Shown here one piece after another: positions 5,331 through 37,846 of a stretch of DNA of 64,000 bases. The notes beneath the pieces are model-generated. The model was given only the letters and a program-made list of their open reading frames with translations, was not told the DNA's origin and made no database searches. The DNA is from Tubiluchus corallicola (Eukaryota; Animalia; Priapulida), in assembly GCA_030141605.1 (NCBI GenBank), contig JAQGDQ010000314.1, forward strand, positions 186,001 through 250,000, read 5' to 3'. A program made the translations under genes and the position numbers. Every line of letters begins with the position of its first letter. Position 1 is the stretch's first letter.

Positions 5331-5874
5331 TCACTAAGATCAGGTCACTGTGTCAAGTTCTGGCTTCATTCTGTAACGCTTACATGCCGTACAGTAGGGT
5401 AGGGGTGAACATTCTCTACCAGAAAGCGAATTCGAATCGAATTTGTGACTTTCGAGTTTGAATCGAGTTGAACTTCGGTATTTCGAATTCAAATTGAGAC
5501 TGAAAGATTTTCGAACAAGTTTTCGAACCAACAATTAAGATTTGTTTTACAAAGATCATGCATGTTAAAATATTTTGTTCTGCAGTGAAACCACTAATAA
5601 ATAATTTGTTTAAAAATTGTGCACAGAAATCACAGCTAAATTATGCTAATTGCATGATGTCTCATACGCTTTAATGATATAGAACGTATGTGATTGAAGT
5701 TCTGAATTATGCGAATGCATAGTGTTAGTAATCACCCCTTATTACAGTAATATAAGGGGGAAAAGGAAATAAAATGAATCTGAATCTTCGAAACTGTATC
5801 TAAAAATAAAATTTCTTGAATTAACTGTTGCTGAACAAACAAATATAAGGATTGTCTTTTTTGCTGTACCTAAC

Positions 5875-6183
5875 ATGTCGCTGTTCGTGGAAAGCTTTTT
5901 ATTTTTGTTGACTTTTAGCTTTTGTGATTTACATTTCTCTTTGGCAAACGATGATTCCAAAATCTTAGTTACCATAGAAGGAAAGGTGCAGTCACTTAAG
6001 GAGTATTATCCAAATTGGACGCAGGTTACAAAAATTCACGTTGATGGTGGCCACTATTTAGGTTTCTTAAAAGAGGATGGCAGTTTTCAGGTGCAAAATC
6101 TGCCCGCGGGCTCATCTTACGTTTTTGAAGTCATAAATGCTGATTTTGAATATGAACCAGTACGAGTGGATATTAATAGTAAG
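5875..6183 (+). CDS. EMC7: ER membrane protein complex subunit 7, coding exon 1
   Basis: Signal peptide, then IEGKV...TKIHVDGGHYLGFLKEDGSFQVQNLPAGSSYVFEV...YEPVRVDINSK. Phase-0 donor AAG|GTAAGA at 6183/6184. Confidence 0.93.
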
Positions 6184-6559
6184 GTAAGAAATTTCCTGAC
6201 TTAAACAAAAATAGTGTTTTTTAATTTTTATTCGTAAATAATAATAATTATATTAGTTGCATTACAATTATTTGTGTTAGTCCATTTTTAACGGTAAATA
6301 AATAAGGGATGGCTGATTCGATAACTGATGTTTTTCGCCAACCTTTCCAATTTGTTTGGTTACTTAATTTATACTAATCTTCCTTGTTTTTGATTTGGAT
6401 AAAGAAATGAAAGATTTGACTTTGAACTTTAATTGCATTTGTTTGGTTATGTGAAATAATATCTCAGAAGTTATGATATGCCGCACTATTTTAAGTGCAA
6501 GCACTTTTTCTTTTTGTTTCCTGATAACCCAACGTGTATTTCTTTATTGTTCTTTGCAG

Positions 6560-6907
6560 GGCAAGGTTCGTGCAAGAAAGCTGAGCTATATACAAACCCA
6601 CTCGTCACAGGTGCAAACTGTAAGCTACCCACTCCGGTTTAAAATGAAAGGTTCAGCAAATTACTTCCAGAAGCGAGAAACATGGCGGATTACGGACATG
6701 CTGTTTAGTCCGATGGTGTTGATGATGGTTTTGCCAATGCTGCTGCTGTTCGTTCTGCCAAAGATGGTGAATATGAATGATCCTGACACTCAGAAGGAGA
6801 TGGCCAACATGCAAGAGCAAATGCCGCAGCCACAAATGCCGGATATGGCGGAAAAATTAACGAGTTGGCTGGGAGGAGATACCAAACCTAAAGCAAGAAA
6901 AAAGTAA
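6560..6907 (+). CDS. EMC7: ER membrane protein complex subunit 7, coding exon 2 (total ~218 aa)
   Basis: Acceptor TTCTTTGCAG|GGC, in frame with exon 1. Reads GKVRARK...YPLRF...YFQKRETWRITDMLFSPMVLMMVLPMLLLFVLPKMVNMNDPDTQKEM, the TM helix typical of EMC7. Confidence 0.93.
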   Translation, partial: GKVRARKLSYIQTHSSQVQTVSYPLRFKMKGSANYFQKRETWRITDMLFSPMVLMMVLPMLLLFVLPKMVNMNDPDTQKEMANMQEQMPQPQMPDMAEKLTSWLGGDTKPKARKK

Positions 6908-11946: not shown

Positions 11947-13728
11947 TTAATCTTCATCATCATCAAAGTGACCACCCTGTACGACTGTCTTCTGATGGTA
12001 GCGGCCCCGGGAGGCAAAATCTTCATTATCCTCTGTAAGCTGAGCAGCAGTCGTCTCCACTCCAGGGTGAGATGGAGTAACAACGTACTGTTCTTCCTCG
12101 TCCCGTCCACGACAGCGGTTCCACAGTGACCGCAGCCAACTTATGAAACTAAAGTCAGCGATGCCGGGAGCCAGGCCAGGGTTAGCCCAAGCAATGTAGA
12201 CATACACCAAGCCAAGGAAGATGAGATTACAAAGGGCATAAAGCCATTGCACAAGGAAGATTATGGTGAGACTGACTATAGCAGAAAGGAGAGCAATCCA
12301 GCGATTGCACAGCATTGAATACCAAGATTCGGGCTGTTTGCTTATCTGAGGTTTAGCGCCAGCTGGTTTGACAGCATCCAGAAGGTGGGAAGTGTCGCTG
12401 GCGTCACTGTAGAAACTTTGCTGACTGACTGATTTTTGCACAATTTCACCACGATCAACATCGTGTTTAAATGTTGGTGAGTGAGGGCGCTCGAGACTGT
12501 CCTGCTGCAAAGGACCACCGTGCTTCGGATCGACACGTTCCGGAAAAAGCCTGTCAAGGTCATCGCTAAACTTTTCCAGAGATTTACTTTTAGAATTGGG
12601 CAGGCCGGGCTTTTCTGCTGTGCCATAACCAGGGATGGCCATTGTGTCATCGTCATGAGCACCCTTGCCGAATCTTGTTTCGCGACGCTTTTGGATGTCA
12701 AACGACATTGCCAGAGCAAAGTAGGCGTAGTCAATGGCAGCATAAGTTATCATGAATGGCATTGTAACAATGGGTGCCAACACATTGAGCTGACCAATTA
12801 AGATAAACAACAATGACACCAGAACTGTGACACCAAGTGCCAGAACAGGAACCTTGTTAGGACCACGCCCTCTACCAAGAACACGGATAATTGGTATGAC
12901 ATTTTCATTTGCAATACTCTGGAGGATCCGCGGAGAGCCGTACAGACCACCCAAACACGAAGAAAGGGAGGAGATGTAGAGACCTAAAAGCCAAGCAATA
13001 CGCAAGCCGGAGACCTTCTCCGCAATCATGTAATCAGTTTGCAGGGCGCTACGGGTGCATGTTGCACCGAGTATCAATAAACACATTAAGTAGAGAAACC
13101 CACTGACACCAATAGACGCCAGCGAGCCAATGGGAATGTTTTTGCTTGGATTGCGCAAGTCTCCACTCATATTGATCCCGGCAAAGACGCCAGTGGCTGT
13201 GGGAAAGATTACCCCAAAAACAGTGAAGAAATTCTGGTCCGCCAGATAATCCGGACGGGAGTTGTTCATGAGTACATCTCTGCTGTAACCGACGACGCCG
13301 TGTGCAATGTCGTGACGCAGGAACGAACCGATTGCAAAATCTAACATGGCTATGAAGAGAGCGAAGAGAAGAACTAACTGGAGCTTAATTACCCATTTAA
13401 CTCCAGCTACATTAAATGCGCTGAGTACGATCAAGACCGCTGTGCCGATACCACGGGAAATCCAAGGATTGTCATTGCTGATCAGAGAGCTCATTGACTC
13501 ACCGAAGCCGGTTGCAAACAGCGCCACTCCAACTGCCTGCCCGAAGACATAGATTATTCCCACAGCACCTCCTGCTCGAGGACCGAGTACAAAACTGATC
13601 AGGAAGTAAATGCCGCCACTTTCCACCCGACAACGCTCACAGATGCCAATGCCAGACAGAACGGAGAAGAGTGCCATTAGGACCGTCAGAAGAATAATGA
13701 TTATAGACATGAGTATGCCGGCATTGCC
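11947..13728 (-). CDS. SLC12A8: Solute carrier family 12 member 8 (CCC9), large last coding exon
   Basis: Acceptor TTTCGTTTCAG|GGC at 13729/13728 gives GNAGILM, then LSGIGICER..ESGGIYFLISFVLG..GGAVGIIYVFGQ, FFTVFGVIFPTATGVFAGINMSGDL, and a C-terminal QLTEDNEDFASRGRYH typical of SLC12A8. Confidence 0.92.
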   Translation of the reverse strand, partial: GNAGILMSIIIILLTVLMALFSVLSGIGICERCRVESGGIYFLISFVLGPRAGGAVGIIYVFGQAVGVALFATGFGESMSSLISNDNPWISRGIGTAVLIVLSAFNVAGVKWVIKLQLVLLFALFIAMLDFAIGSFLRHDIAHGVVGYSRDVLMNNSRPDYLADQNFFTVFGVIFPTATGVFAGINMSGDLRNPSKNIPIGSLASIGVSGFLYLMCLLILGATCTRSALQTDYMIAEKVSGLRIAWLLGLYISSLSSCLGGLYGSPRILQSIANENVIPIIRVLGRGRGPNKVPVLALGVTVLVSLLFILIGQLNVLAPIVTMPFMITYAAIDYAYFALAMSFDIQKRRETRFGKGAHDDDTMAIPGYGTAEKPGLPNSKSKSLEKFSDDLDRLFPERVDPKHGGPLQQDSLERPHSPTFKHDVDRGEIVQKSVSQQSFYSDASDTSHLLDAVKPAGAKPQISKQPESWYSMLCNRWIALLSAIVSLTIIFLVQWLYALCNLIFLGLVYVYIAWANPGLAPGIADFSFISWLRSLWNRCRGRDEEEQYVVTPSHPGVETTAAQLTEDNEDFASRGRYHQKTVVQGGHFDDDED

Positions 13729-14912
13729 CTGAAACGAAATAAAGGAAATGTATTTAACAACATATTGCTAGTTATATATCTTAATATTTAAAGCTTATTT
13801 GAAACCTCAAGTTATTGATACTGTTACTTTGGAAGCTAACTACAAAAAATACACAACAAGAAGGTAAATGTCATATCATCAGGCCATAACTAAAATACAT
13901 TATAAGACCAAATTGATCGCCACCTTGATTCGATCTTCAGGATATTATTTTACGTCATTATGATTGCATGGACAATGCGAATAAATAAGATAGGGCTGAC
14001 AATAAAAATACTTTTGTGTCTGTCTAATCGCCCGGGTACATTTAATTTTATTGCACACCCAGCTGAAAGACTTACCTGCCACAGCCATATAAAAGCAGTT
14101 TTTAATTTAAAACGTAAAATACAATAATTATTATAACATCGTCATTTTGGATAGGACGCAGCCATGTTTTTCTAGGGCTAACTCTCAGTCAGGGTTCTCA
14201 TTCTCTATGATGCTTGTTATCGTATTGTGGGCCAAAAAGTATGTATTTTCCGCCAAATCAGCATATTAATGGCCGAGTAGTGTTGCCGCTTATACCATAA
14301 CTATAAGAACAAATGTTCTGATGATACCGTACAAAAAAGAGTCTATATGATAATCGGTAATTGTACAATAATTTAGTAATGCGAAATAAAGAACTAAAAA
14401 ACTAATCGTGAGAAAAATGTGCATTGAAGGAATTTAAAACATTACTGCTAACCAGTGGGAAATAAACAAACTTTGATAACAACTCACTTTAAATATTACA
14501 CAATTCAGCTTTAAACATTCACAAAGCTTTAAAAAAGATTTCCTCAATCCTTACTGACATCTTTTGAGCTCATGAGATAAGCCAGAAGCAAATTCTGTTT
14601 TGCGGCCAGCCCAGCAATAATTAGAAATGAATATGTAATTAAAATACATAAAAATTGCATGCCAGATACAAATACTTTTCTAGCTAAAATACCAGTTGTT
14701 TACTTTACATATCTGCTACAAAAGTACACAAATTTTTTTATAATTTGATTACTCCAGTGCACAAAATGTCCAAAAGCAATGAATGCATTTATAGTTTAAG
14801 CAGCACAATACGCTTAACTTGCCAAAATAAATTCTACCACACATTTTTAACATACTATATCTGTCTTTTAAGAACAACAGTGAAAAGTGCCAAGAGAACT
14901 CTAAGTGCTTAC

Positions 14913-15041: not shown

Positions 15042-15823
15042 CTGCAGAACAGAATGAGATCAAGAAACACTGTACATTATGCACGAGATATACTAACGAT
15101 GCTAATAGTACGAAAACCAAAAATTAAGAAATTCTACAGCCATTTGTTTTTTTTTTGAGTAACTTACCCAACTGTAAAGCATTAATCAAGAAAAAGCAAT
15201 GATTCAACCTCATAAACTAGTCCAATAGCCTCACTAAATCCCATCAATTGACAATTTGTACTAGTACAGTGCAGTATAAAAGAATTTATTGAACTATAAC
15301 AGAGTACATGAAATAAGGCCAAGAGCGTCCCACCCCCAGCCCCGTCAATGAAGCATGTTTACATAACTTGCCAAACATCAAGGCTGCCTCTGAACAAGAA
15401 GCTTCCTGATTCGAACATTAGTTAGTGACCTGACAAATAGCTTTACAGATGATTATATGTAAAATTTTGCAAAATGCATGCTACATTCCCACAATTTTCA
15501 GTGCCCAGCGTTTATTTTATATAACTGAATCTACTGAGTTACAACACTCAATAGTTACTGTTATTCAACACAGATAGTTGTGGCCAACTTGGCTATTATG
15601 AAGGTTATGCATGTAGATCACAAAATGGCAGAAAAATGGGATAAACAACCAGAAGTGGTATGACGAGTGAGCCGCCCAGAACAAGTATTAAAAAGTTTTG
15701 GATCAATCCTTGATCAGCTTTGGCTCCATTCTTAACTTCGTCTGCAAGAACTGACCATGACCACACAGCTATTACATCTTACCTCTATTCCTCTATTCCG
15801 TAACATGACCTTGTTATACGTAC

Positions 15824-16000
15824 CTGATCTTTCTGGTCATCAGTATATAATTCATTTTCTTGCATGGCATCATGCTGATATCTCCCACTCTCAGCTGTAT
15901 AAGGTGACTCCGCCCCTGTTCGCTCATCTCCATCACGCAGTCCGTACCGTCCCCAGTCCGGTGCACCTCCACCCTTTACTTGCTGTTCTAAGTCTGTCAT
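15824..16000 (-). CDS. SLC12A8: SLC12A8 first coding exon (59 codons; total protein ~695 aa)
   Basis: MTDLEQQVKGGGAPDWGRYGL...ENELYTDDQKDQ. Phase-0 donor CAG|GTACGT at 15824/15823. An upstream acceptor near 16027 implies a further non-coding exon. Confidence 0.75.
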
Positions 16001-19000
16001 TCTAGAGCTATATCTCTGATATGCCCTGTAAAATATTCACACAGGTTTATCATTTTGACTGAGATTTTTCATTTAATGACACAATAAAAATGGAAGATGG
16101 GCGGAGGACATTCTTATGCAAAATCAACATTTATAGCTACAGCCAAAAAAACAATAAAAAAAATTTGCAGTCTAATTTTTGAAAGTAAAAATTCATAAAA
16201 TTAGACCCCAAGGGCTATACAGTTCAAACGATTAATTATACAAATTAATAACAAAAATCGTTTAATGTCCAGATTGAATAACTAATTATTTGTCAAAATC
16301 AAAATAATTTGTTAATGATGGAATGAACTGTTGAATTTATGAAGCCAAACTTGTCTAAAACAATAAAGAAGCAAAAATCTGGTTAAAGATATTTAATATT
16401 AGGAGGCCAATTCCATGACAACTAGCCTATACAATAATAGTGGACTGTTCAATTCATCACCTTTCCTCATTAATTCTATATGCTAAAAATAACTACTAGA
16501 AAAGTTGATTACAGTAATGAAAATGAATCAACACAAAAATATAACACCTTTACATATCTAATCAGATAGCTTTCGAACATGCTGTGTCCTTTATCAGGCA
16601 AATAAAAATGAAAAGAATGGATCTTAGAACTTTAAACAGAATGCAAAAAACAACAACAATAATGTCAAATAAAGGATTAAAACAGATGTCCCTTTGGAAT
16701 TTAAATCCAGGTTGTCAACTTAATGTGCAAACTTTTTTGATTTTTAGGAAATAATTGTCACATGATTACATCAAAATTTTAAATTTGTTATTAGACGTAG
16801 AGTGACCAGTGAGAATAGAGTTTTAAAATCCACTCCTTTCATCCTTAATTGACTGATGATGGACACAAGAGGAAGCGAAGGGAAGCAGAATGCAAACATG
16901 GATAGATTTTACACAAAAGAACTCAATGAAACATCTCTAATTTTGAAAGACAAGTATTTGGAGAGAAGCAAAAGAACGTACCATTTAGCAGCAGAAGCTG
17001 GCGGTGTAACGTCAATGGACGATTGATACATGCCATATTATATGATGATGGAAACAAGTATTTTCAAAAGTTATCTGATTAAACATATTAGAAAAGTTCC
17101 ATAAACAACCAAATAAATCAAAACAAATCATATTGATTCACCTTCAAACCTTTGATACTTTTGCTCAAAGACTAGACGATGTCTGTAACGTTTCTACATG
17201 GTCCGTATCTTACACATGATGTGGGTTACTGCATTTGATTAGTTACTTATACTGCCTCCTCATCACCAATTTATGAATTAAGCAGTAAGGCGATACTGTT
17301 ACTGCAACCTAAGAAAAATTAAAAAGCTAAAATTTCAATTACCTCTTAATGAAATACAGAGAAGAATTAACTTGGGAGAATTAAGCCTGGCAGCAGTAGG
17401 TCTTTTAGTTTATTGAACAATTGACTTCACATTAACAGAAGTCCCGAAAGTGGCATTCTGTGCAGCTGTCCTCCCGGCTACATACTTCCATCAAATTATA
17501 ATTTGGGCACATGATAAAAAGCGTACTTACAGCAAATTTTGCCTGAATTCATAACACCGAAATAACTGCTGATAAAACTGAAAGGGGCACCAAAAACTTA
17601 CGAATATTAAATGTGAGCTGGCACTGAAAAAGCTAGCATGTCTGGTAATATAGCACACATTTGGAAATCTGGAATCATAATGTTTCCCCAAGTATAATTA
17701 CACACAACCACTGTAATAATTAGGCCTAATCATTTCATTACCTTTTAGGTCTGGCAATTAAACTCAAAATATTTTTACCACAAACTTACACAGGAGAAAC
17801 TTAATTACAGCTAGTATTTTCTCCTTTCTGATAATTCAGGGTCACACAAACACTTTCACATTCAGTAGTAAATTTAAATTAGACTTACATACTTTTATAC
17901 AATGCAATGATTTGATATTCAGATATTCATTAATAAATGACTCGGCATTCGGCAATAACAATTTCCAATTTGCGTTTTTAACAAAATAAAGCAAGACAAA
18001 CCACGCAAAATCAATAAATCTTAAACATTGTTGCTGCCATAACAGTGCCAATTAATTTTGTCGATGAACCTTTCAGTGGTAAATCAGGTCGGGCAAAAAC
18101 TGTTATAAGCTACTTAAATGTTCAGATTAAGCCTTAGGTCCTGCGGACTACGACTTTATACACTGAACTATTTGTACACACATGAACTTTATACACAGGC
18201 AAATTTGAAATTATACATCTACTTAGTGCAATCGTCGTACCGTCGGGACAATCACAATAGTGTCAAAAAACAACATTAAAATTTTATAGCCTACAAAAAT
18301 GTTACACCAGAAAAACTAAAAAATTCGTAGTAACCTAGAAAAAAGGTTCCAGATGGAATCTATCACTAAAATTCACAAACACACACGCAGCCATCATGGA
18401 GTGAACGTAGACTGGTACGCGTCCGTTTTCAAATTTACACTTTACCATGCAATGCATCCGGCGCGTGCGTGTAGCCGTAGATGAGAGTGACACTCAGGCG
18501 CCACACAGTTAGATGAGCATCAGTTGATACCTGGCTAGTTTGCATTCGAAGACGTTTCGCGTGTATTTACATTAATTTTATATTTTTGCGACTAAGAGAA
18601 ATTTAAAATAACCTCTTAGTTTTTTCTGATTGCAATTATAGGTCTGTATTTTGTACTATTTTCAAATATAATTGCAACCATTTCTTTCCCGGGAAAGTCA
18701 TTTACAATTTGTTATTTCGCTCCTAGTTTTATGCTAGCAGATAATTAATTAGTTGGAAACTGGCATTTTTAATTTATATTGCTGATATAACTACCCTGGT
18801 AAAATAAATAAATCTAATCCAAAAAATAGCTCTGTTTATCAAATTTACGGGGTTCCATAGGTGATATCAACTACTTGCCCATATACCCAGAAATTGTTTT
18901 TAAGGTATTGGTAATATAACTTTTTGTAATATTTCACAACTTGAGAAACAGTCCACAGTTAAGCGACTTGATCCAACAAGAAAAGTCCATTCTAAAGAAA

Positions 19001-20231
19001 TATAGTTAATTAGCAATGTACCAAATTTCAGTGAAGCCCATGCTTATAAATATAATTGAAGTTCCTAGTGACCTTGAAATATAATTGAGTTCTTTGTGCT
19101 GTGTTGCTTTGCTTTAGTGTACCGTCTTCCGTAGATTTTAAGTCGCAGACTAAGAAAAACTTTCACTGTCCTTCGTAAAAAAGAAGACTAGTGAACTGCT
19201 TCTTTACTGATCCTGCGTTAAAAGATGTGCTTGCGACTACATTTGCTGTATTTGAAAATATAGAATAGCGCTGCACATTAAACCTTGAGATAAGATTTTC
19301 AAACGTAATTATTGTGGTGCCACAAAAGTATTGATGTGGTAATATTTCTTCGTGTTCCTGCTGATTTAATTAAAAAACAATTTTTGCGAAACTTTGTTAA
19401 CACTGCAACGCATTTTTTAGAATTAGCAGTCACATGCGACGGCAGGAGCAACTCATAATGCAGCACCGGAGTCTACTCCTTTTGAGACAGACTTCAAAAT
19501 TCCATCTTCTCTCATCTTTCACGGCTTAAATGGTCTTAGCAGGACTGTATCCTAACTCAATATCAAAAATATTCCTATATGATGAAGTTCTGACAATCAA
19601 GTGTCTCAGCCACGTTTACGCACAAGCCCTTCTTTAAAAGTTAAAATAGCTAGTGGCAGTGTGGCAGACGAATCACCCGTCTCAGTGGTATCACCCATCG
19701 ATTTACTAACCAGATCTAGCATTGCTTAAATGACTACTCGTTATTTTCCGCGAGATATTCCGCCAAGATTTTCCAAGACTTTGAAATATAGACATGTAAG
19801 CAAGTAAGTGCCCCTTATAACGAGAAAAAGTTGTTGCTTTCCTACAAAATTTTGTCAGCATTTATGTAGCTACTTGGACCAAATAAATAAAGTGTTTCAC
19901 AGTGTTTGACTGAATAAAATAACAGCAACCTTAATGTATGCTCACTTCTCACATGTTTAATTCCTATTATTGTCAAAAGTACAAGATTTTTTAATGCATG
20001 TTAATATAACAAAAATAGCGCATATTAATTGATAAAAAACATTGTTGCGTTTTTATTTTATGTTTTATTACTTTAAACATTTGTAAAGGCAATGCGTTTT
20101 CAGTTTTTCATTTTTTTCGAACGTTTTTAAATCTTATAACTTATGAAATTTTTACTGAAATAATATGTTTAATACGTGATTATCATAATAATTCGAAAGT
20201 TCCCATTTCTCTTGAAATGCACCCCAAGATT

Positions 20232-23200
20232 TTACATTTTTGGTTTTGCGAATTTCTTTTTTAACCTATACAAATCCTCATGTTCCTGTTTCCATTTGTC
20301 TGACCTATCGAAGCAGGTGGACCACCACGCGAAACTGCCAGTTGGTTGAGTCTGCTGTAGATACCATTCACGGAGGTCTTCAGTGCTACCATAAATGTGA
20401 TCAAGTGATCCCATAGAGCGGCCGACGTGACTGCTTGATTTTGCTCTTTTTCCTTTGTCCTTATGAGGTTTGGTAGATCTGCGCTTACCAGAAAGGAGAG
20501 GTTTGTAAGCAACATTTTGGAAATCTTCACCATTAGTCGCAGCTGCCAGACAATCTCCTGGTTTTAACTCACTCAAATCATTGACTACAGAACCATCAGG
20601 AATCCGGTACAAAACCTCTGCCTTGCCCGTTTCAAAGGGAATCTTAGTTGGTATGTCCTGGAGAACTGCTTCTAGATTATCTTCTTTGTTCAATATAAAT
20701 TTCGTCGGGGAAGAATATGAATCACCGTTTCGGTACACGTGTGCCGGAACACCAGCCAGTGGATAATCAACGTTTTGAAATTTGTCCTTTTTAGTCGCAG
20801 CAGCTAAATGGTCCCCTTGCTTCAGTTCGTTTGCATATTTTATTTTAGAGCCGTCAGCTATTCGATACAGCTGTTCGACATGACCATCCACTAGAGGAAC
20901 CTTCTTTGCAGCATCTTGGACAATATCTTCTAATGTATTGTCTTCGTTAACTGTTAATTTCACGGGAGCAAAATTGACGTCACCATTTTTGTACAAATAT
21001 ATTTGAAGACCGGATGGTGGGTAATCAATGTTTTGAAACTTTGCCTCCTTTGTGGCAGCAACAGCAACTCTGTCCCCTGATTTAAGGTCATTTGTACTCT
21101 TGATTTTAGAACCATCAGGGATTCGAAACAATTGCTCAGCTCCACCCTCTTTAAAAGGAATCTTTGTAGAAATGGTTTTGAGAACATGTTCTAACTTGTC
21201 TTCCTGATTCACTAGCAGTCTCACAGGAGGAGATTTATTCCCGTTTTGGTACACGTATATTGGAAAACCAGATGGCAGGTAATTAATGTTTTTAAACTTT
21301 TCCTGATCTGTGGCAGCAGCCAGACGGTCTCCTGGTTTCAGCTCTTTCGTTTCATTGATTTTAAAGCCACCGGGGATATGAAATAACTGTTCAGCGTGAC
21401 CCTCGTTGAAGGTGATCTTTTCGGCAACAGCTTGGAGAATCTCTTGTAACTCATCATTTTCGTTTACTATAAATCTCACAGGTGGGGAAGATTCCTCGCC
21501 GTTTTTGTACACATAAACTGGGAAACCAGATGGAAGGTAATTAATGTTTTGATACTTGGCTCCTTTAGTGGCAGCGACTAGACGATCTCCAGTTTTCAGA
21601 TCTTTTGCATCTTTTATTTTGTATCCATCTGGTATTCGAAATAGCTGTTCGGGACGACGACCCTCTTTGAAGGAGATCATTGTTGCTACATCTTGAAGTA
21701 TTTCTTCTACCTTCTTTTCCTGGTCCACCAGTAATCTTATAGGGGGAAAGGCCTTATCACTATTTTTGTATACATAGATTTGGAAACTGGTAGCTGGATA
21801 ATCAATCTTTTGAAAATCTTCCCCGTCGTCTGCTGCTGCAACACGTTCTCCTGATTTTAGTTCACTTAGTTCTTTAATTTTGGAGCCATCAGAGATGCGA
21901 TATAGCTGCTTTGCATTGATACCTTCAAGAACATCTTTTAACTTGTCATCTTGGGTCAATATTAATTTTGTAGGAGGTGTAGATTTGTCACCGTTTTTGA
22001 ACACATAGATTGGACGACCAGCTGGGGCATAGTTGGTATTCTGAAACTTTTCTTGATTTGTTGCAGCTGCTAAACAATCGCCTGATTTTAAGTCCTTGAC
22101 ATCTTTAATTTTAGAGCCATCGGAAATCCGAAACAGTTGCTCAACACGACCTTCTTTGAAAGGAACCTTTGTGGCAACAGCCTGCAGAATTTCTTCCAAC
22201 TTGTCTTCCTTGTTCACAAACAGTCTTACCGGAGGAAAGGACTTGTCATTATTTCGGTACACGTATACCGGAAATCCAGGCTGTGGGTAAACAATTTTTT
22301 GGAACGCTTCTTTTTTAGTGGCAGCTGCCAACCTGTCTCCTGGTTTCAGATCTTTTAGATCTTTAACTCTAGTACCATCAGGGATTTTATAAAACTGTGC
22401 AGCATGACCGTCTTTAAAAGGAATCTTTGTGGTAACGTCTTGAAGAACCATATCTAACTTGTCATCACTATTCAGTGTTAGCTTTAATGGAGGAACTGAT
22501 GCATCGCCGTTTTTATACACATAAACAGGTATGTCAGATGGTAGGTAGTCAACGTTTTGGAACTTTTCTTTATTAGTGGCAGCTGCTAAACGGTCCCCTG
22601 GCTTTAGTGATTTTACATCTTTGATTTTCGAACCATCAGGAATTCTATACAACTGCTCTGCTTGACCCTCCTTAAATGGAATCTTAGCAGCAACATCTTG
22701 CAAAACCGTTTCTAATTGATCGTCATTGCTTAGTGAAAGCTTTTTTGGAAGCATAGATGCATCACCATTTTTGTACACGTAAACAGGTATGTCAGATGGT
22801 AGATAATCAATGTTTTTGAAAGTTTCTTTATCAGTGGCAGCTGCCAAACGGTCTCCTGGTTTTAGTGATTTCACGTCTTTAATTTTAGATCCATCAGGAA
22901 TTCGATACAGCTGCTTGGGATGACCATCTTCAAAGGGAATTTTTTTGCCAACATCTTGAAGAACCGTATCTATATTATCGTCACAGCTCAATATCAGTTT
23001 TATGGGAGCAAGAGATGTGTCACCATTTTTGTACACATAGACAGGTATGCTAGACGGTAGGTAGTCAATGTTCTGGAAAGTTTCTTTATTTGTCGCAGCT
23101 GCTAAACGATCACCTGATTTCAGTGATTTTACATCGTTGATTTTGGAACCATTAGGGATTCGATACAACTGTTCAGCATAGCCATCTTTGAAAGGGATCT

Positions 23201-25412
23201 TTGAGGCGACATCTTGCAGAACCTCTTCTAACTTTTCTTCTGCACTCAGCATTACTTTTGCTGGTGGAATGTCCTTGCTGCCGTTTTTGTACACATAAAG
23301 AGGTATCCCAGCCGGTGGGTAATCAATGTTTTGGAAACTTTCTTCATTAGTGGCAGCTGCCAGACAATCTCCTGACTGCAACGATTTTAGATCGTTGACT
23401 TTAGAGCCATCTGGAATTTGATAGAGCTGCTCGGCATGGCCCACTTTAAAAGGAATCTTTGATGCAATATCTTGTAGAACTTCTTCTAGTTTGTCTTCTT
23501 TGCTCATTATTATTCTTATGGGAGGAACAGACTTGTCACCGTTTTTGTACACATGGATTGGCACACCTGGTGAAGGGTAATCTAAACTTGAGAACTTCTC
23601 TGTACTTGTAGCAGCAGCTAGGCGGTCACCTGGTTTCAACTCCTTGACATTGCTAATTTTCTTGCCATCTGAGATACGATATAATTGCTCAGCATGACCA
23701 TCTTGAAAAGCAATGTTTGGTGCAACATCATCTTGCAGGATATCCTCTAGCTTATCATCTTGGTTCAATATTAGTTTTATGGGTGCAACAGTTTTGTCAC
23801 CATTCTTGTACACATAAACAGGAAAACCAGGTGGTAGGTAGTCAATATTTTGGAAGGCTTCACCTTTAGTAGCACCTGCTAAACGGTCTCCTGGCTTCAG
23901 CTCTAATATGTCTGTGATTTTTGAACCATCAGAAATGCGGTACAGTTCCTCTGCATGGACATCGTGGAGAACTTCTTCCAACTTGTCTTGCTCAGTCAAC
24001 AAAACTTTTATAGGTGCAACTGCTTTTTTACCATTTTTATAGACATAGATTGGAAAACCAGGAGACGCATAAATCATGTTTTCAAAACTTTCGTCCATGC
24101 CAGCAGCTGCTACACGATCTCCTGATTTAAGTTCTTTAATGTTATTGATTTGAGAACCACTAGGAATGCGGAATAACTTTTCAGCTTGGATATCTTCAAG
24201 AAGTTCCTGTAGTTTCTCATTTGTGTTCAATATGAGTTTTAGGGGAGGAGAAGTGTCACCATTTTTATACACATAGATCAGAACACCAGGAGGAGGGTAG
24301 TTAACATTTTGAAATGTCTCGTCCTTAGTAGCAGCTACTACACGGTCCCATGATTTCAACTCAGTTGCCTCTCTGATTTCACAACCATCACTGATTCGAT
24401 ACATTCGTTCTGGTTGTCCCTCAGGGAATGGAATTTTTTCTGCAATCTCCTGAAGAACCTTTGTTAATGTGTCTTCTTCTTTCAATATTACTTTTTCGGC
24501 AGGTATCCTTTTGTCGCCATTTTTATAAACGTAGATTGGAACACTTGGTTTCGGATATTTTATTTTCTGAAACTTGCGTCCCTTGGTGGAAGCCACTAAT
24601 CGATCATCTTGTTTCAACTCTTTTATGTCTGTGATTTTAAAACCATCTGGGAGTCGGAACAGTTGCTGAATAGGTTCATTTTTAAAAGAAATTTTTGTTG
24701 ATAAGTATTCACGAAGGCCTTCCAGTGTCGTATCTTGGTTAATTATTAATGTTAAGGGATGAAACGACTTGTCACCATTTTTGCATACATGAATTGCAAA
24801 CTCTTCACCACCCGTGTCAACAGAATCAGCAGAATCTTTGGACTGCAGGGATGGTCTTTGTCCTCTTAGTCTTGATTTTTTCTGGTAAAATCTGGGATCC
24901 TCTGCTATTGTAGGCCGAATCTTTGATTTTCGAATAACCAAGCCTTTAGCAATTTGAAAGTGCTCAGCTCTTGGTTTTACAAGGCGATTGGGATCTCTAG
25001 CATCTTTTTTCAGCTCAGGTGGTGGATATTTGACCTTTTGGAACTTTTCTGGCATCGAGGCTGCTGCTAACCGATCCCATGATTTCAATTCTAAAGCATC
25101 AGTTATTTTTTTGCCATCCTTTATGCGGAATAACTTCTCCACTTGGCCAGCATTGAGAAATATTTTTGAAGCAACACTTTGAAGAACATCATTAAGCGTA
25201 TCAGCCTGATCGAGTATCAGCTTTATGGGATTGAAGAACTTGTCGCCATTCTTGTAGACGTAAATTGGAATGGGTTCTGCAATTATACTTACTCTTGCTG
25301 GAACCAAACTGCCTGTTCGACTGTGCGTAACTAATTGTGGTACATCTAAAGTAGCAGAGGTAGTAGACGCTTTACCACTCATTCGTCGTTCCACTGTGTC
25401 TAATTTTTCCAT
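20232..25412 (-). CDS. Giant multi-doublecortin (DCX)-domain protein, 1726 aa, 18 DCX-like domains plus a Trp-rich C-terminal motif, single coding exon
   Basis: Eighteen 76-87 aa units with consensus P[IV]YVYKNGD..PP.KL.L...D.LE.VLQD.A.KIPF..G..EQLYRI.DGSKI....LK.GDRLAAAT..E.FQN.DY. This matches the DCX fold pattern (YRNGD...L..L...G.V..LY..DG..I..L.EL..G..YV....F....Y). Confidence 0.85.
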   Translation of the reverse strand: MEKLDTVERRMSGKASTTSATLDVPQLVTHSRTGSLVPARVSIIAEPIPIYVYKNGDKFFNPIKLILDQADTLNDVLQSVASKIFLNAGQVEKLFRIKDGKKITDALELKSWDRLAAASMPEKFQKVKYPPPELKKDARDPNRLVKPRAEHFQIAKGLVIRKSKIRPTIAEDPRFYQKKSRLRGQRPSLQSKDSADSVDTGGEEFAIHVCKNGDKSFHPLTLIINQDTTLEGLREYLSTKISFKNEPIQQLFRLPDGFKITDIKELKQDDRLVASTKGRKFQKIKYPKPSVPIYVYKNGDKRIPAEKVILKEEDTLTKVLQEIAEKIPFPEGQPERMYRISDGCEIREATELKSWDRVVAATKDETFQNVNYPPPGVLIYVYKNGDTSPPLKLILNTNEKLQELLEDIQAEKLFRIPSGSQINNIKELKSGDRVAAAGMDESFENMIYASPGFPIYVYKNGKKAVAPIKVLLTEQDKLEEVLHDVHAEELYRISDGSKITDILELKPGDRLAGATKGEAFQNIDYLPPGFPVYVYKNGDKTVAPIKLILNQDDKLEDILQDDVAPNIAFQDGHAEQLYRISDGKKISNVKELKPGDRLAAATSTEKFSSLDYPSPGVPIHVYKNGDKSVPPIRIIMSKEDKLEEVLQDIASKIPFKVGHAEQLYQIPDGSKVNDLKSLQSGDCLAAATNEESFQNIDYPPAGIPLYVYKNGSKDIPPAKVMLSAEEKLEEVLQDVASKIPFKDGYAEQLYRIPNGSKINDVKSLKSGDRLAAATNKETFQNIDYLPSSIPVYVYKNGDTSLAPIKLILSCDDNIDTVLQDVGKKIPFEDGHPKQLYRIPDGSKIKDVKSLKPGDRLAAATDKETFKNIDYLPSDIPVYVYKNGDASMLPKKLSLSNDDQLETVLQDVAAKIPFKEGQAEQLYRIPDGSKIKDVKSLKPGDRLAAATNKEKFQNVDYLPSDIPVYVYKNGDASVPPLKLTLNSDDKLDMVLQDVTTKIPFKDGHAAQFYKIPDGTRVKDLKDLKPGDRLAAATKKEAFQKIVYPQPGFPVYVYRNNDKSFPPVRLFVNKEDKLEEILQAVATKVPFKEGRVEQLFRISDGSKIKDVKDLKSGDCLAAATNQEKFQNTNYAPAGRPIYVFKNGDKSTPPTKLILTQDDKLKDVLEGINAKQLYRISDGSKIKELSELKSGERVAAADDGEDFQKIDYPATSFQIYVYKNSDKAFPPIRLLVDQEKKVEEILQDVATMISFKEGRRPEQLFRIPDGYKIKDAKDLKTGDRLVAATKGAKYQNINYLPSGFPVYVYKNGEESSPPVRFIVNENDELQEILQAVAEKITFNEGHAEQLFHIPGGFKINETKELKPGDRLAAATDQEKFKNINYLPSGFPIYVYQNGNKSPPVRLLVNQEDKLEHVLKTISTKIPFKEGGAEQLFRIPDGSKIKSTNDLKSGDRVAVAATKEAKFQNIDYPPSGLQIYLYKNGDVNFAPVKLTVNEDNTLEDIVQDAAKKVPLVDGHVEQLYRIADGSKIKYANELKQGDHLAAATKKDKFQNVDYPLAGVPAHVYRNGDSYSSPTKFILNKEDNLEAVLQDIPTKIPFETGKAEVLYRIPDGSVVNDLSELKPGDCLAAATNGEDFQNVAYKPLLSGKRRSTKPHKDKGKRAKSSSHVGRSMGSLDHIYGSTEDLREWYLQQTQPTGSFAWWSTCFDRSDKWKQEHEDLYRLKKKFAKPKM

Positions 25413-26215
25413 TGTAAATGTTGTAATTTCCAGATTAATTTGTTAGTTGTTTTTGACAGATTCTTTTCTGTGGTTTCCACGTCACAACCAGTTTCAGGTA
25501 ACCCAGTAGCAATCAAACCACCTTCTGCTGACCTAAAAGACGTCATTAGATATTGTTGAACTCAATCAAAAATGTGTTACAGTATATAACTAGCTGTTGC
25601 TTTTTAATTTTAGATAGACTGAAAATGTTGAATTCTTGATGTATTTCTGTGAAAAGGTGTCAGCTAATTATCTAACACAAAGTAGAAAGCTGAACTTTAA
25701 AAAAACTGAGCAAGATATTTTTGCATTACATGCATTTGGATTACATTCATGTAATTTTAACATTATGAGGTGGAACAAGAATTGACGTCAACATATTTGA
25801 CAATTAATGCCAGCCAACCATGCAGAAAACTCTGCTTAATTAATTTTAGGTAGCTTTAACATTATATACAGTTAAAAGCATTAACACGCTTTCTACTTTT
25901 GTCGTTCAATGAAAATACTGCCTCACGGGCAGCCGTTTTTCTAGTGCACGGGCTTTTTCATGGAACACAGGCCGTTAGTGCGTTGTACTCTAATTGATAT
26001 TTTGTGAATAGTGACCGCCAGTTTTTGTAAAATTTTTGTATTTGCCAATATTTAGCTGTATGTTGGTGTAGCAGTAAACGGATTTATACTTACTCCGTGG
26101 GAGCTAAGCCCGCTTGCCTATCAGATGGTAAATCTAGGCACACACTCATTCCCAGACACACTGGGAATGCGAGTGCATAGCAACTAGTAACCATAGATGC
26201 TAGAGATGTCTAAAT

Positions 26216-28092: not shown

Positions 28093-28434
28093 CTATTTTG
28101 GTTTCTTCAACATACAGAAGATTTCATGTTTTTTCTGCCAATCGCTAGTCATCTCTTTTTCATTGCGTACGTCCCACCACGTCCATGAGCCCACTGCAAA
28201 TTTTTGCGTTTTATAAAGGTCTCTTAGGTCTTCACTGCTTCCATAGAAAAAGGGGCGGCTGTATTTTTGAGTAGAGCCGCTGGAGGCGACCACTTTTTCC
28301 TTATCTAACTGCACGGTTGTAGCCTCAGCAGTGTTTTTGTCGCTTTCTTTTACTGATTTCTCCCCAGTCTCTCTTATATCAGTAAACTCTTTGCTTTGCT
28401 CTGATGCCTGTGTTCCTGCGCCATTAGTCGACAT
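28093..28434 (-). CDS. Small 113 aa paralogue of the DCX-cluster genes with no DCX domain; keeps the Trp-rich C-terminal motif
   Basis: C-terminus FYGSSEDLRDLYKTQKFAVGSWTWWD...SDWQKKHE aligns with the C-termini of both neighbours. Good start context (AAAATGTCG). Acceptor (T)nCAG|AT at 28664/28663. Confidence 0.75.
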   Translation of the reverse strand: MSTNGAGTQASEQSKEFTDIRETGEKSVKESDKNTAEATTVQLDKEKVVASSGSTQKYSRPFFYGSSEDLRDLYKTQKFAVGSWTWWDVRNEKEMTSDWQKKHEIFCMLKKPK

Positions 28435-30050: not shown

Positions 30051-31211
30051 CTAATTTTCATGTGCCCCTGTTTTGGGGCAACATAGATCTTTCGCGTGTT
30101 TACGGGTTGACCTCAAGTAGGCATCGATCCATTTGTGCCATTTACTTGATCTGTCGTAACACGTATTCCACCACGTCCACGAGCCCACTGGTTGCAGTTG
30201 TGACTTGTACCATTCGTCAAGATCCTCGGTGCTCCCGTAGAAGATAATGTGAGCATTTTTTGATTTTTCAAATCCAGAATTTTTTGCTTCTTCGCTGTCC
30301 TTTTCAGTCACATCAGTAGCCCTTTTTGTTTGAAATTCGTCTTCTTTATATACAGGACTTTCATCGTATTCGTCCAACTTCTCCAGTTTACTATCTGTTG
30401 CTGTTAAGCGCCGTGACATTTTCATTGTCTCCAAATTCTTCTTGGCAGAACTTTTCGCTTTTTCACTGCCCTTTTGAGTCACTTCAGTCAGACTTTTTGT
30501 TTGAAGTTCATCTTGCAAATATATAGGGGTTTCATCAAGTTCATCTAGCTTCTCCAGTTTACCACCTTTTGCTATTGAGCTTTGTAACAGTTCCATGGCG
30601 TCGTGCATGGCGAAAGTATCTCCATGAAATGTATGCCGTCTTCTAGATGTTATAACTTTCCTGAACGCCACAAAATCATCGTCGTCATCCTCTGCTTTTG
30701 GTCTCTGTGATTTTTGCTGGACAGTTATATCCCTTTTAGAGAAGGGCTCTGCGGGAAGCGAATGCCGCTTCTTGGATTTTCCAACAACGATTCCCTTGGA
30801 CACCTTAAAATGCTCGGCTTTCAGTTTTTCCAGACGATGAGGGTCCTTGATGTTTTTCTTTAGCTGTGGTGATACATATTTAACGTTTTGGAACTCTTCA
30901 TGCATTGTAGCAGCCGCTAAACGATCCCAGGATTTCAACATTTTCTCATCCGTTATCAGGGAACCATCGGCAATCTGGTACAGCTGGTCAACATGACCAC
31001 GAGTTAACGAAATCTTTTTGGAAATAATTTGCAAAATCATCTCTAGCGTTTCATGTTGATGAAATATCAGTTTAATAGGTGTGAAGAATTTGTCTCCATT
31101 CCTGTACACGAAAACTGGAATGGGTTCCGGAATGCGATTCACTCGTGATGGAACTAACTGTCCAGTTTTGCTGTGCTTGACCACTGGTAAGAGTGCGTCC
31201 TGCTCTGCCAT
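30051..31211 (-). CDS. Single-DCX-domain paralogue, 386 aa, with an internal acidic duplication and the Trp-rich C-terminal motif
   Basis: First ATG is at 31211 (the ORF track starts at a TTG). PIPVFVYRNGDKFFTPIKLIF...LYQIADGSLITDEKMLKSWDRLAAATMHEEFQNVKY closely resembles DCX unit 1 of the 1726 aa protein. C-terminus FYGSTEDLDEWYKSQLQPVGSWTWWNTCYDRSSKW. Confidence 0.85.
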   Translation of the reverse strand: MAEQDALLPVVKHSKTGQLVPSRVNRIPEPIPVFVYRNGDKFFTPIKLIFHQHETLEMILQIISKKISLTRGHVDQLYQIADGSLITDEKMLKSWDRLAAATMHEEFQNVKYVSPQLKKNIKDPHRLEKLKAEHFKVSKGIVVGKSKKRHSLPAEPFSKRDITVQQKSQRPKAEDDDDDFVAFRKVITSRRRHTFHGDTFAMHDAMELLQSSIAKGGKLEKLDELDETPIYLQDELQTKSLTEVTQKGSEKAKSSAKKNLETMKMSRRLTATDSKLEKLDEYDESPVYKEDEFQTKRATDVTEKDSEEAKNSGFEKSKNAHIIFYGSTEDLDEWYKSQLQPVGSWTWWNTCYDRSSKWHKWIDAYLRSTRKHAKDLCCPKTGAHEN

Positions 31212-35505: not shown

Positions 35506-35912
35506 TTAAAAGCTGATACACGATGGTGTATCATTGCTGACAGCTGCATCTCCCATTAAACCATTCTTCATTTTACTCCAAGCCAACAGGTTCCCACCAC
35601 TATTATAGCAATACAAGAACAAATCTTGGATTTCTTCATTACTTAATATGTAGTCGTAAAAATTAAAGCCTGCAATCTTGCCCTGGAAAGCATTTACCAG
35701 TTGGAAACTCCTGTCACCCCAGGTTTTAGCATACTGTCCTATAAACAAAGATCTGTTTACGGGCAAGAGGTAGTCGGTTAAATATCCTGTATTCACGGAG
35801 TAAATCATCTGAGCGTCAACATGAAACTTGTAATTTCCTTCAAGATGGAACGCAGATGAAATGCCACTCATCATCCTGCACATGAACCACATTACCCGGA
35901 GTACTCACGACA
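35506..35912 (-). pseudogene. Pentraxin/LamG-like domain gene, last exon, with a frameshift
   Basis: Acceptor TGTTTCAG|T. The spliced frame reads VVSTPGNVVHVQDDEWHFICVPS* (stop 35842-35840). The pentraxin remainder (EGNYKFHVD...LFIGQ...AFQGKIAGFNFYDYILSNEEI..L..C....GNLLAW) lies in a different frame. Confidence 0.75.
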
Positions 35913-36935
35913 CTGAAACACAAAACAAAAAACTCACACAGGTTCCATTATTATTGGTGAAGATGTTTTTTTCTGTTTTTTTTTCTGTTTTCACAATTCT
36001 TAATTTAATGCTAAAAAGTGGAAGTACACTAAAAGGCTGCTATAATCGCATATATTAATTCTCTTGCTATATATATATTTATATATATATATATAAGATT
36101 CGAGGCTACAGCTCTGACGACGGCACCATTTGTGGTGATCCATACATCAAACGAATTATACAAGAATCTATATACGCACTGAAGAAAATTAAATATAGAC
36201 GGTAAAGATGGCAGTTGGAAGCGCCATCAATACTACCACTGTGGTGCAAGTTTACAGATTCAGAGCTCCCTTGGTACATAGTAGTGTGTAGTAAGTAGTA
36301 TGTTTAATTTGTCTGTGCACCCACACGTGGAAGTTAACATGAAAAAGTGACACACGCAACCAAAAGCGGTTAACATGATGTAATAATATATCGTTTTTAC
36401 CTTTTTAAAAATTTTTTTGAAAGGTTTTAGTGTAAAGCAAAAAAGACACTTATAGTTGCCGCCCTTTGTACGTGGGTTCAAATACTTGTTATTTTGCTGT
36501 TAACATTGGACAACTGGCAGAGAAAAAATATTAGAACAAATTTAGATAAAACAGAAACATGGGCATGTTGCAGTGATGCTGTATTCTAGAGTTGAAAAGA
36601 TAAAATAAATATAAGCCTATCGGGCTTTCTTCAATTAAAAAAGTGTTGTTGTAGCTTGGATCCACCTGCCTGTTTAATTTCTCACTTTAGAGAATCCTTC
36701 TTGATATTCCGACAGATTCCAATCCTGCCACACTCCATTAGCACAGTAACACACCCGTTCATTACTGGATTCCAGTATGCAGTTCCAATGTGTCAAACCT
36801 TTTTGAAAAAAGTAATGGTATGGGATGCCTGTGTCACACAACAACTGCACTGAGGACCTATACAACTTTTGCTAGTTTGTTTGATGTATTATTATAGTCA
36901 TTTCTAAACTCAGTTATAAAAGAAGCATGCCTTAC

Positions 36936-37182
36936 TCTTTATAATACCCTCGATCATCTTCAAAAACAAGGTGTAGTTGAAAATTTGAAAATCTGAAGTT
37001 AATGGTATCGTTGCCATTGTTCCAAGTCCAGAGCTGATGCTGGGCATAGCTTCCTGATCCAACCGTTGTCTTCAACCAACCACAAAATGAAAATGCTGAG
37101 GTTAAGTCGTTAGAAAAAATGCCATCTATCTGAATGTAGTCAGTTGTGCTCGGTGTAGGAAACTCCACTTCGTAGCATTCGT
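36936..37182 (-). pseudogene. Pentraxin-like domain gene, upstream exon
   Basis: CATTTTAG|AC...GA|GTAAGG. Reads ECYEVEFPTPSTTDYIQI...LTSAFSFCGWLKT, the pentraxin N-terminal FP....DY / F[TS].C.W pattern. Its phase-2 end matches the next exon. Confidence 0.72.
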
Positions 37183-37846
37183 CTAAAATGATCGTCAAAT
37201 TATTGTTGCTTTCTTTTTTTAAATTAAGTCACAAGCAACCTGAATAGGCAATCTGAATATTGCTAATGACTCTCACGTGCGATTATACTTCAAAATTTTT
37301 TAGGACGGACGTTCTTCTTATTTGGTGTGGTAGATTTTTTTATTATTGTTGCATGTAGTTGGCAGAATTAGTATTTTGTGTGTTTGTGCAGTGCATGTGT
37401 AGTAATTTATCTTTTTTAGTCAATTACATGGCAATTTTAATGCTGAAATAAAAGGTGAATAGAACTGAATTTAATTGAAAAAAAGCCGTTTCACAGGTTT
37501 ATCCAGCCAGCCAACATCATGCTGCTCAAACGATTTTAGTACAAAATGATTTGAAAACGTTTTCAATTTACTGGTTTTAAACCCCGTTTGGTGAAAATAT
37601 TTTGAAAACATTTAGGCTGACATGAAAACACTCAAATCGCTTTGAATGTGGTTGAAAACGGTTTAAGAAATAAACCATTTCCACGTATTCAATGTTTTTA
37701 TTTACTTTTTTAATAAATTTAATAAATTATTTAATATTGTACTGCAGGGCTGTGATGAGATGAAGTGTAATGCTGGCAGGGGAATACAGTAGAGTTCTCA
37801 GGTGTGCGTGTTAGTAAAAGCCACTAGACACGTGCATACCTGAGCT

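What the first reader, a model, noticed from the sequence alone, without database searches (positions are those of the whole stretch)
20232..25412. Eighteen DCX-like domains in one uninterrupted exon
Seen: 18 units, of which units 2-18 are head-to-tail with almost no linker. Most are 86-87 aa, but units 4, 5 and 13 lack the same ~9-10 aa (the KIPF.EG segment). Units 8-11 are most alike, and DNA copies are diverged while the 5.2 kb frame stays open, which argues against an assembly artefact and for purifying selection. Known: DCX, DCLK, RP1 and DCDC2 carry two domains, and I know of no characterised protein with this many. Inference: with such short linkers, successive domains probably cannot occupy consecutive 8 nm lattice sites, so the array may act as a rod, ruler or cross-linker.
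Basis: partly seen in the sequence, partly recalled or inferred. Interest (0 to 1): 0.8.

Follow-up and report, generated by a model that had tools for sequence, protein, structure and literature searches.

The report
Eighteen-doublecortin chain with eroded microtubule face
One uninterrupted reading frame in an animal genome, likely a priapulid worm or close relative, encodes 18 doublecortin-type domains whose usual microtubule-binding charges are largely lost or reversed, so the chain likely works as a long spacer rod between two end modules rather than as an 18-fold microtubule clamp.

Summary
One minus-strand frame (ATG 25412, stop 20232; 1,726 aa) encodes 18 DCX domains. Units 2-18 are joined by 6-residue linkers, and units 4, 5 and 13 lack the same 9 residues. 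Three units fold as DCX (pLDDT 94.8, Z 13.7 to doublecortin). All 171 domain pairs have pN<pS (median omega 0.24), and public contigs tile the gene without frameshifts.

Two new points:
(1) Two tandem paralogues upstream share the gene's Trp-rich C-terminal motif but have one and zero DCX domains.
(2) 6 of 10 family-conserved basic positions are lost, two mostly to Asp/Glu, and the deleted segment is doublecortin's microtubule-contacting loop 3.

Best reading (0.45, inferred): a semi-rigid spacer rod held by its two ends, likely on ciliary or sperm microtubules. Rivals are a multivalent lattice binder with a new mode (0.25) and a non-microtubule scaffold (0.2). Among the 150 best of 333 hits in 1.84 billion representatives, no protein had more than 4 DCX domains. 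No orthologue was found, and neither expression nor binding is shown.

The parts
20232..25412 (-). Complete single-exon CDS, 1,726 aa, about 194 kDa, no transmembrane stretch
25014..25274 (-). DCX unit 1; sister to the paralogue's single DCX domain (97/94 support); flanking segments also conserved with the paralogue
24804..25013 (-). 70-aa basic linker after unit 1 (net charge +9); first half conserved with paralogue 2
20496..24803 (-). DCX units 2-18, head-to-tail, 6-residue Pro-rich linkers, net charge -13
24060..24287 (-). Unit 4, lacks the loop-3 segment (9 aa)
23829..24059 (-). Unit 5, lacks the loop-3 segment (9 aa)
21789..22019 (-). Unit 13, lacks the loop-3 segment; still predicted to fold (block pLDDT 91-97)
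20394..20495 (-). 34-aa basic stretch after unit 18 (net charge +8)
20235..20402 (-). Trp-rich C-terminal motif shared with both paralogues; no Pfam, PDB or Atlas match
20052..20069 (-). Two AATAAA hexamers 162 and 174 nt after the stop (candidate polyadenylation signals)
25532..25542 (-). Acceptor-like site 120 nt upstream of the ATG; paralogue 2 has one at 129 nt, both followed by GTCA. Suggests a 5' UTR intron (inferred, no RNA)
30051..31211 (-). Paralogue 2, 386 aa: N-terminal module with one DCX domain (30867-31124; 52% identity over 170 aa to the array's N-terminus), a charged spacer with its own two-copy 57-aa-period repeat, and the C-terminal motif
28093..28434 (-). Paralogue 3, 113 aa from its ATG: low-complexity stretch plus the C-terminal motif, no DCX domain. 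The frame is open 31 codons further upstream, so it could be a last exon

Best explanation
The 18-domain gene is one of three tandem paralogues that share a C-terminal motif and carry 0, 1 and 18 DCX domains, and its units 2-18 likely act as a folded, semi-rigid spacer rod that holds two end modules apart, likely on or between ciliary or sperm microtubules. Shown: the array, its close kinship with the one-domain neighbour, purifying selection, and loss of most conserved basic residues of the family. Predicted: each unit folds as DCX, and neighbouring units have a fairly defined orientation. Inferred: a DCDC2-like gene was reduced to one C-type DCX domain whose lattice-binding face was remodelled. 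That gene duplicated in tandem, and one copy then amplified the domain serially inside the exon. The basic segments at both ends (+9 after unit 1, +8 after unit 18) and the Trp-rich motif would do the attachment. The acidic middle would set a distance of up to roughly 60-75 nm if extended (17 units at 3.5-4.5 nm, my estimate from domain size, not measured).
For: (1) At 6 of the 10 columns where at least half of 273 homologous domains have K/R, at most 4 of 18 units do, and two of these columns are D/E in 14 of 18 units. They include the equivalents of DCX R102 and C-DC K202. The loop carrying R76/R78 (H205) is two residues shorter and acidic (numbering recalled, anchored on N94/I95 in PMC7726794 and R78=H205 in PMC3003314). 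DC-microtubule contacts are mainly electrostatic (PMC7726794), and R78 lies close to tubulin (PMC3003314). (2) Unit net charge runs from -5 to +5 (units 2-18 total -13), against a median of +4 in homologues; Mann-Whitney p 1.5e-7, overstated because units are not independent. (3) Three units tolerate deletion of loop 3, which enters the inter-protofilament groove in DCX (PMC7726794), and one such unit still folds. (4) The part conserved in all three paralogues is the C-terminal motif. Paralogue 2 fills the middle with an unrelated charged repeat (25 of 40 identical), as expected of a variable-length spacer. (5) pTM 0.67 for three units corresponds to about 5-6 A inter-domain error, against about 0.35-0.4 for free orientation. 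(6) The best sequence relatives are DCDC2-like or unnamed proteins of animals and flagellated eukaryotes, and the C. elegans DCDC2 orthologue localises to the axoneme (PMC10388106, abstract).
Against: Four of the ten basic columns are kept: the K of the YKNGD motif 17 of 18, the R196-equivalent 17 of 18, the K112-equivalent 15 of 18, and one more 9 of 18. A lysine beside the R89 equivalent stays in 13 units. Loop 3 is intact in 15 units, and 18-fold avidity could offset weak sites. The acidic residues are conserved with mixed codons (E46: GAG 8, GAA 6), as are new surface residues (R50, D53, K64, D67, R68), which suggests each unit binds something rather than being an inert spacer. Unit 1 and the paralogue's domain have the same eroded face, so the N-terminal domain is no better a microtubule anchor. 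The end anchors rest on charge alone. The contact map was inferred from text passages, not from the papers' figures. The pTM may be inflated by overlapping windows of the same protein in the alignment. The ciliary or sperm setting is inferred from the family only.
Confidence: 0.45

Rival explanations
1. The array is a multivalent lattice binder with an altered mode. Each unit binds tubulin weakly, and the chain runs along a protofilament groove at about 4-nm pitch (intra- and inter-dimer vertices) or uses every second unit at 8 nm, so stabilising, curving or bundling a special microtubule array.
For: The DCX fold and the NGD motif are kept. Four basic columns are retained. TgDCX binds the intradimer interface whereas mammalian DCX binds the interdimer one (PMC12819142, passages), so 4-nm-spaced sites exist. 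Tandem DC domains are needed for stabilisation (PMC7726794).
Against: Six of ten basic columns are lost, two reversed; the array is net acidic; loop 3 is deleted in three units. No alternation of two unit types: mean identity is 52.6% at even lags and 53.2% at odd lags.
Confidence: 0.25
2. The domains have left tubulin altogether and serve as a poly-beta-grasp docking platform, binding many copies of another partner or self-assembling through a new conserved surface.
For: New conserved charged positions that are rare in the family: R50 16 of 18, K64 17 of 18, R68 14 of 18, D67 18 of 18, D53 15 of 18. Long stem of 1.05 to the clade of 18 units plus paralogue (99 support). Related folds CIDE-N (Z 10.6) and other beta-grasp interaction domains follow DCX. 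DCX domains also bind non-tubulin partners (PMC1550402).
Against: No partner was identified. These residues could be intra- or inter-domain salt bridges, as the rod model would need. Basic end segments and the family's microtubule association remain.
Confidence: 0.2
3. The expansion is nearly neutral: slippage or unequal crossing-over lengthened a dispensable gene, and selection only removes frameshifts and misfolding.
For: Omega up to 0.59 in some pairs. 8 of 14 allele differences in the CDS are non-synonymous (pN/pS 0.38, p 0.07 against neutrality). No orthologue was found.
Against: pN<pS in 171 of 171 pairs; median omega 0.24 over 136 estimable pairs; synonymous sites are near saturation (mean pS 0.66) while 5.2 kb stayed open. 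Specific surface residues are conserved through synonymous change.
Confidence: 0.08
4. Assembly artefact that inflated the number of copies.
For: Long reads were not examined, and the runs that cover the whole gene are one sample that may be the assembly's source.
Against: No two units exceed 78% DNA identity, depth is flat, one 3.4-kb contig spans 21067-24438, and a second sample matches parts of most units.
Confidence: 0.01

Closest known systems
DCDC2 / DCDC2B / DCDC2C family (human DCDC2 PDB 2dnf; C. elegans RPI-1; sea cucumber and Ptychodera DCDC2-like)
   Same: Best single-domain PDB sequence match (E 4e-7), fold Z 13.2, same loop-3 length as C-type domains, no kinase; units fall on the side of the tree with animal second (C-type) domains (92, unstarred).
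   Different: 18 domains against 2; 6-residue linkers against a median of 41; conserved basic face lost; novel C-terminal motif; one coding exon.
Doublecortin (DCX) / DCLK
   Same: Domain fold (Z 13.7, rmsd 1.9 A over 86 residues to 5ikc) and the NGD and terminal F..V.Y motifs.
   Different: No N/C pseudo-repeat pair: all units descend from one domain. No 38-40-aa linker, no kinase; R102- and R78-equivalent charges are lost or reversed.
Uncharacterised 3-4-DCX proteins of chytrid and blastoclad fungi, Mantamonas, Palpitomonas, Ancoracysta
   Same: More than two DCX domains in one chain; they are the top hits of the unit profile.
   Different: At most 4 domains, long linkers, mostly basic faces kept, separate clades in the domain tree: independent expansions.
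Toxoplasma TgDCX (PDB 6b4a, 9y9z)
   Same: Divergent DCX domain (Z 13.1) with a non-canonical lattice site (PMC12819142, passages): precedent for a changed binding mode.
   Different: Single DCX domain plus partial P25-alpha (bioRxiv 10.1101/623140, listing); binding shown there, not here.
Linear polyubiquitin, ISG15, USP7 UBL array
   Same: Head-to-tail beta-grasp domains with short linkers; top Foldseek hits.
   Different: TM 0.2-0.3, rmsd 11-19 A, 10-18% identity: shared architecture only. No Gly-Gly processing sites.

Membership tests
DCX domain superfamily (PF03607) | Sequence match to the DCX profile | tested here: met
   Whole protein 194.7 bits, E 2.2e-58; 13 of 19 single domains at E<=0.1; 18 of 18 at 22-62 bits with a homologue-only profile
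DCX domain superfamily (PF03607) | DCX-type beta-grasp fold | tested here: met
   AF2 model of units 12-14, pLDDT 94.8; top six VIA-align hits are DCX domains, Z 11.1-13.7. Only 3 of 18 units were modelled confidently
Canonical lattice-binding DCX MAPs (DCX, DCLK) | Conserved basic microtubule-facing residues and loop 3 | tested here: not met
   6 of 10 family-basic columns lost, 2 mostly acidic; 4 kept; loop 3 deleted in 3 of 18 units. Mapping to DCX numbering by eye
Canonical lattice-binding DCX MAPs (DCX, DCLK) | [quoted passage not shown] | not testable with these tools
   No tubulin sequence was held, and the site involves four subunits
DCDC2 family | Two N-terminal DCX domains (N- and C-type) joined by about 40 aa | tested here: not met
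   18 domains of one origin, 6-residue linkers
DCDC2 family | Domain descent from a DCDC2-type domain | tested here: inconclusive
   Best PDB single-domain hit is DCDC2; the tree places the clade beside animal second domains at 92, on 91 columns with a long stem, and without labelled DCLK or RP1 rows
DCDC2 family | Ciliary/axonemal localisation | not testable with these tools
   Needs cell work
DCLK, DCX-EMAP, RP1, DCDC1 | Extra domains (kinase; HELP/WD40; PLAT; ricin or DCDC1-type domains) | tested here: not met
   None in the Pfam scan of the whole protein; DCX2_DCDC1 only weakly in 1 of 19 domains. The PLAT and ricin features are recalled or from PMC1550402
Polyubiquitin / UBL precursors | Gly-Gly C-terminus on each unit for processing and conjugation | tested here: not met
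   Units end in Y-x-P-x-type linkers

The most novel reading that the evidence does not exclude
The longest doublecortin array found here, and a case where this microtubule-binding module has been charge-reversed and reused as a titin-like structural repeat: a molecular ruler whose length is tuned by gene family members with 0, 1 and 18 units, setting spacing in a lineage-specific cilium or sperm structure of priapulid-like worms.
Probability: 0.25. Interest if true: 0.8.

Novelty: new variant of a known kind. Interest (0 to 1): 0.58.

Why it matters
DCX domains are treated as one- or two-copy microtubule-lattice binders. An 18-copy, tightly linked, selected array with a remodelled face gives a natural series for asking what a DCX domain does without its basic surface, whether loop 3 is dispensable for folding, and how a MAP module becomes a structural repeat. 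The natural variants are full and loop-3-less units, and paralogues with 0, 1 and 18 domains. The Trp-rich C-terminal motif is an uncharacterised conserved element with no database match. The limits are one species, no orthologue and no expression or binding data.

Tried and rejected
Homologue searches:
- Word-indexed searches with the full protein (lengths 954-3038; the 7,983 candidates sharing most words were scored) and with paralogue 2 (lengths 212-676; 5,899 candidates) gave no hit. Longer and shorter lengths were not searched.
- The metagenome scan gave 1 distant locus of 324 pattern matches (28% identity, L001; not followed).
- ESM Atlas gave only DCX/DCDC1 clusters under 0.8 for the protein and nothing for the C-terminal motif.
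- PDB sequence search with the motif gave 0 hits.
- Exact look-ups of window proteins found none in the collection (the paralogue-3 query started two codons late).

Expression: no RNA holder was listed, and nothing of run X6 was laid; neither is evidence on expression. Read coverage of the two paralogues was not obtained.

Structure:
- The single-sequence fold of units 8-11 was poor (pLDDT 47) and was discarded.
- Complex prediction of the unit-1 module with the C-terminal motif gave no answer (score 0.00).

Other:
- P0095, with 8 matched stretches, is a false hit (short matches at 0.2-5.9 bits) and was dropped.
- Nine of 171 homologue linkers were 10 residues or shorter. The seven looked up are vertebrate DCDC2-family database models, likely lacking the linker exon (inferred).
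- An alternating two-type pattern of units was not found.
- Retrogene origin was not argued: the neighbouring SLC12A8 and ankyrin genes also have very long exons.
- A search for accessory microtubules in priapulid sperm found no paper with that term.
- No whole genome was held, so other family members and the ordinary DCDC2 gene of this animal could not be sought.

Full report
OBSERVATION. The window has a 1,736-codon stop-free frame at 20232-25442 on the minus strand. The first ATG is at 25412 with an in-frame stop just upstream, so the whole 1,726-aa CDS lies in one exon. An acceptor-like site 120 nt upstream suggests a 5' UTR intron, and two AATAAA lie 162 and 174 nt after the stop. Motif splitting gives 18 units. 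Pfam DCX matches at E 2.2e-58, 13 of 19 single domains match alone at E<=0.1, and a profile made only of homologous domains scores all 18 at 22-62 bits. A profile of the units finds doublecortin and DCDC2 as its top 13 PDB sequences. An AF2 model of units 12-14 on a 118-row alignment has pLDDT 94.8, and its top six structural matches are DCX domains (Z 11.1-13.7). Units 2-18 have 6-residue linkers, against a median of 41 among 171 homologue linkers. Units 4, 5 and 13 lack the same 9 codons. Units 4 and 13 group weakly (83/75) and unit 5 is unresolved, so one deletion later copied is likely but not shown.

REAL AND SELECTED. Units are 50-78% identical in DNA. All 171 pairs (18 units plus the paralogue's domain) have pN<pS, with median omega 0.24 over the 136 pairs where dS could be estimated. 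Contigs of public runs tile the gene at flat depth, one 3,372-bp contig spans 21067-24438, and a second sample covers 26 of 30 bins, with no indel in the CDS. The fully covering runs are one sample and may be the source of the assembly. Of 14 allele differences in the CDS, 6 are synonymous and 8 are not, with none a stop (pN/pS 0.38, p 0.07), so constraint is moderate. Transcription is not shown.

HOST. The neighbouring SLC12A8 is at most 50-54% identical by BLAST to molluscs, annelids, nemerteans and Priapulus. In a quick tree of 54 rows (53 of the 120 listed hits plus the window's) it is sister to Priapulus caudatus (SH-aLRT 100, 61% over 544 columns), within Ecdysozoa at 94. The tool flags the Priapulus branch as long and compositionally odd. 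A priapulid or other scalidophoran is likely, on one gene. Earlier AI notes on this genome read it the same way (unchecked).

GENE FAMILY. Two further genes lie upstream on the same strand. Paralogue 2 (30051-31211) matches the array's N-terminus at 52% over 170 aa including one DCX domain. Paralogue 3 (28093-28434) has no DCX domain. All three end in the same Trp-rich motif (tblastn E 7e-15 and 2e-5 within the window; alignment). Where the array has units 2-18, paralogue 2 has a charged spacer with its own two-copy repeat. The 18 units and the paralogue's domain form one clade (99) on a long stem among 292 domains, and unit 1 pairs with the paralogue's domain (97/94). Identity falls only slightly with distance along the array (55.5% at lag 1, about 52% at lags 6-9), and most inner branches are unresolved. 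This points to an old, fairly rapid series of intragenic duplications from a one-domain ancestor, with later rounds around units 7-11 (inferred).

THE MICROTUBULE FACE. I aligned the units with 273 domains from 148 of the 150 listed hits (domains under 18 bits or covering under 65 columns were dropped). Ten columns are K/R in at least half of the homologues. Units keep four (17, 17, 15 and 9 of 18) and lose six (0-4 of 18); two of the six are D/E in 14 of 18, and an adjacent column is D/E in 15 of 18. By the printed alignments these are the equivalents of DCX R102, C-DC K202/K226/K227 and N-DC K134/K135, and the R76/R78 loop is two residues shorter and acidic. The numbering is recalled and anchored on residues named in the papers. 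PMC3003314 (passages) lists R76, R78, R89 and R102 as surface disease sites and places R78 close to tubulin. PMC7726794 (parts 2-4 of 9 and passages) says the contacts are mainly electrostatic and that loop 3, with N94 and I95, inserts in the inter-protofilament groove. That loop is the segment missing in units 4, 5 and 13. The full contact lists are in figures and appendices that I could not see, so the mapping is partial. The same erosion is present in unit 1 and paralogue 2, so it preceded the expansion. The acidic residues and several new charged residues are kept through synonymous change, which means remodelling rather than decay.

MECHANISM. I favour (0.45) a spacer rod. The folded, net-acidic units 2-18 have a moderately defined mutual orientation (pTM 0.67 implies about 5-6 A inter-domain error by my arithmetic; overlapping windows in the alignment may inflate it). 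They would hold apart two end modules: unit 1 with a +9 linker, and a +8 stretch with the Trp-rich motif. The ciliary or sperm setting rests on the relatives: the named top hits are DCDC2-like animal proteins and proteins of flagellated fungi and protists, and RPI-1/DCDC2 lies along the C. elegans axoneme (PMC10388106, abstract). Some priapulids have highly derived sperm (PMC5371643, passages), which is a lead only. The main rival (0.25) is a weak-site, high-avidity lattice binder at about 4-nm pitch; TgDCX shows that an intradimer site exists (PMC12819142, passages), and four basic columns survive. A non-tubulin docking platform (0.2), near-neutral expansion (0.08) and artefact (0.01) follow.

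COMPARISON AND NOVELTY. A unit profile run over 1.84 billion representatives gave 333 hits at E<=0.001, best 99.7 bits. Because scores add over domains, a long array of similar domains would have ranked first. Recounted with a broader profile, the 150 listed hits have at most 4 domains (118 with 2, 28 with 3, 3 with 4, 1 with none). The limits are that 183 weaker hits were not listed, the profile is window-specific, and the window's own protein is absent from the collection. An unchecked earlier AI note reports an LRR protein with eight DCX domains in a protist, and no such protein was among my listed hits, so divergent arrays can be missed. Paper searches listed no description of a many-domain DCX protein. 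PMC1550402 (part 1 of 6 and passages) describes one or two repeats. PMC9122500, PMC11193195 and PMC13406575 were seen as passages and add nothing against this. No supplements were read. Foldseek's top hits to linear polyubiquitin and USP7 reflect only the tandem beta-grasp layout (TM 0.2-0.3).

VERDICT. This is a real, selected, lineage-specific 18-domain DCX array, a member of the DCX superfamily by sequence and fold but not of any named subfamily by architecture. Its canonical microtubule face is largely remodelled. It is a new variant of a known kind, with interest 0.58; the function is inferred and untested.

Noticed in passing
window 1724-4072 (-): Single 782-aa frame joining ankyrin repeats to a Mab-21/cGAS-like nucleotidyltransferase (Pfam Ank_2, Mab-21, Mab-21_C).
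   Followed up: partly
window 11947-13767 (-): SLC12A8 orthologue with about 600 codons in one exon; groups with Priapulus caudatus in a quick tree.
   Followed up: yes
window 5773-6204 and 6455-6907 (+): Two EMC7 exons (Pfam EMC7_beta-sandw).
   Followed up: partly
window 35506-35904 and 36932-37228 (-): Pentraxin-domain exon and a likely upstream exon with no Pfam hit.
   Followed up: partly
window 50897-51157 and 57264-57614 (+): Two Wnt exons (Pfam wnt); Wnt7-like by eye only.
   Followed up: partly
window 28093-28434, 30051-31211, 20235-20402 (-): A roughly 50-aa Trp-rich C-terminal motif shared by three tandem genes, with no Pfam, PDB or Atlas match.
   Followed up: partly
window 15785-16036 (-): Short coding-looking frame without a Pfam match; may be an upstream exon of SLC12A8.
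   Followed up: no
window 19690-19729 and 19982-20151: Short stretches that also lie on other contigs of the same runs (dispersed repeat or second locus) just downstream of the gene.
   Followed up: no
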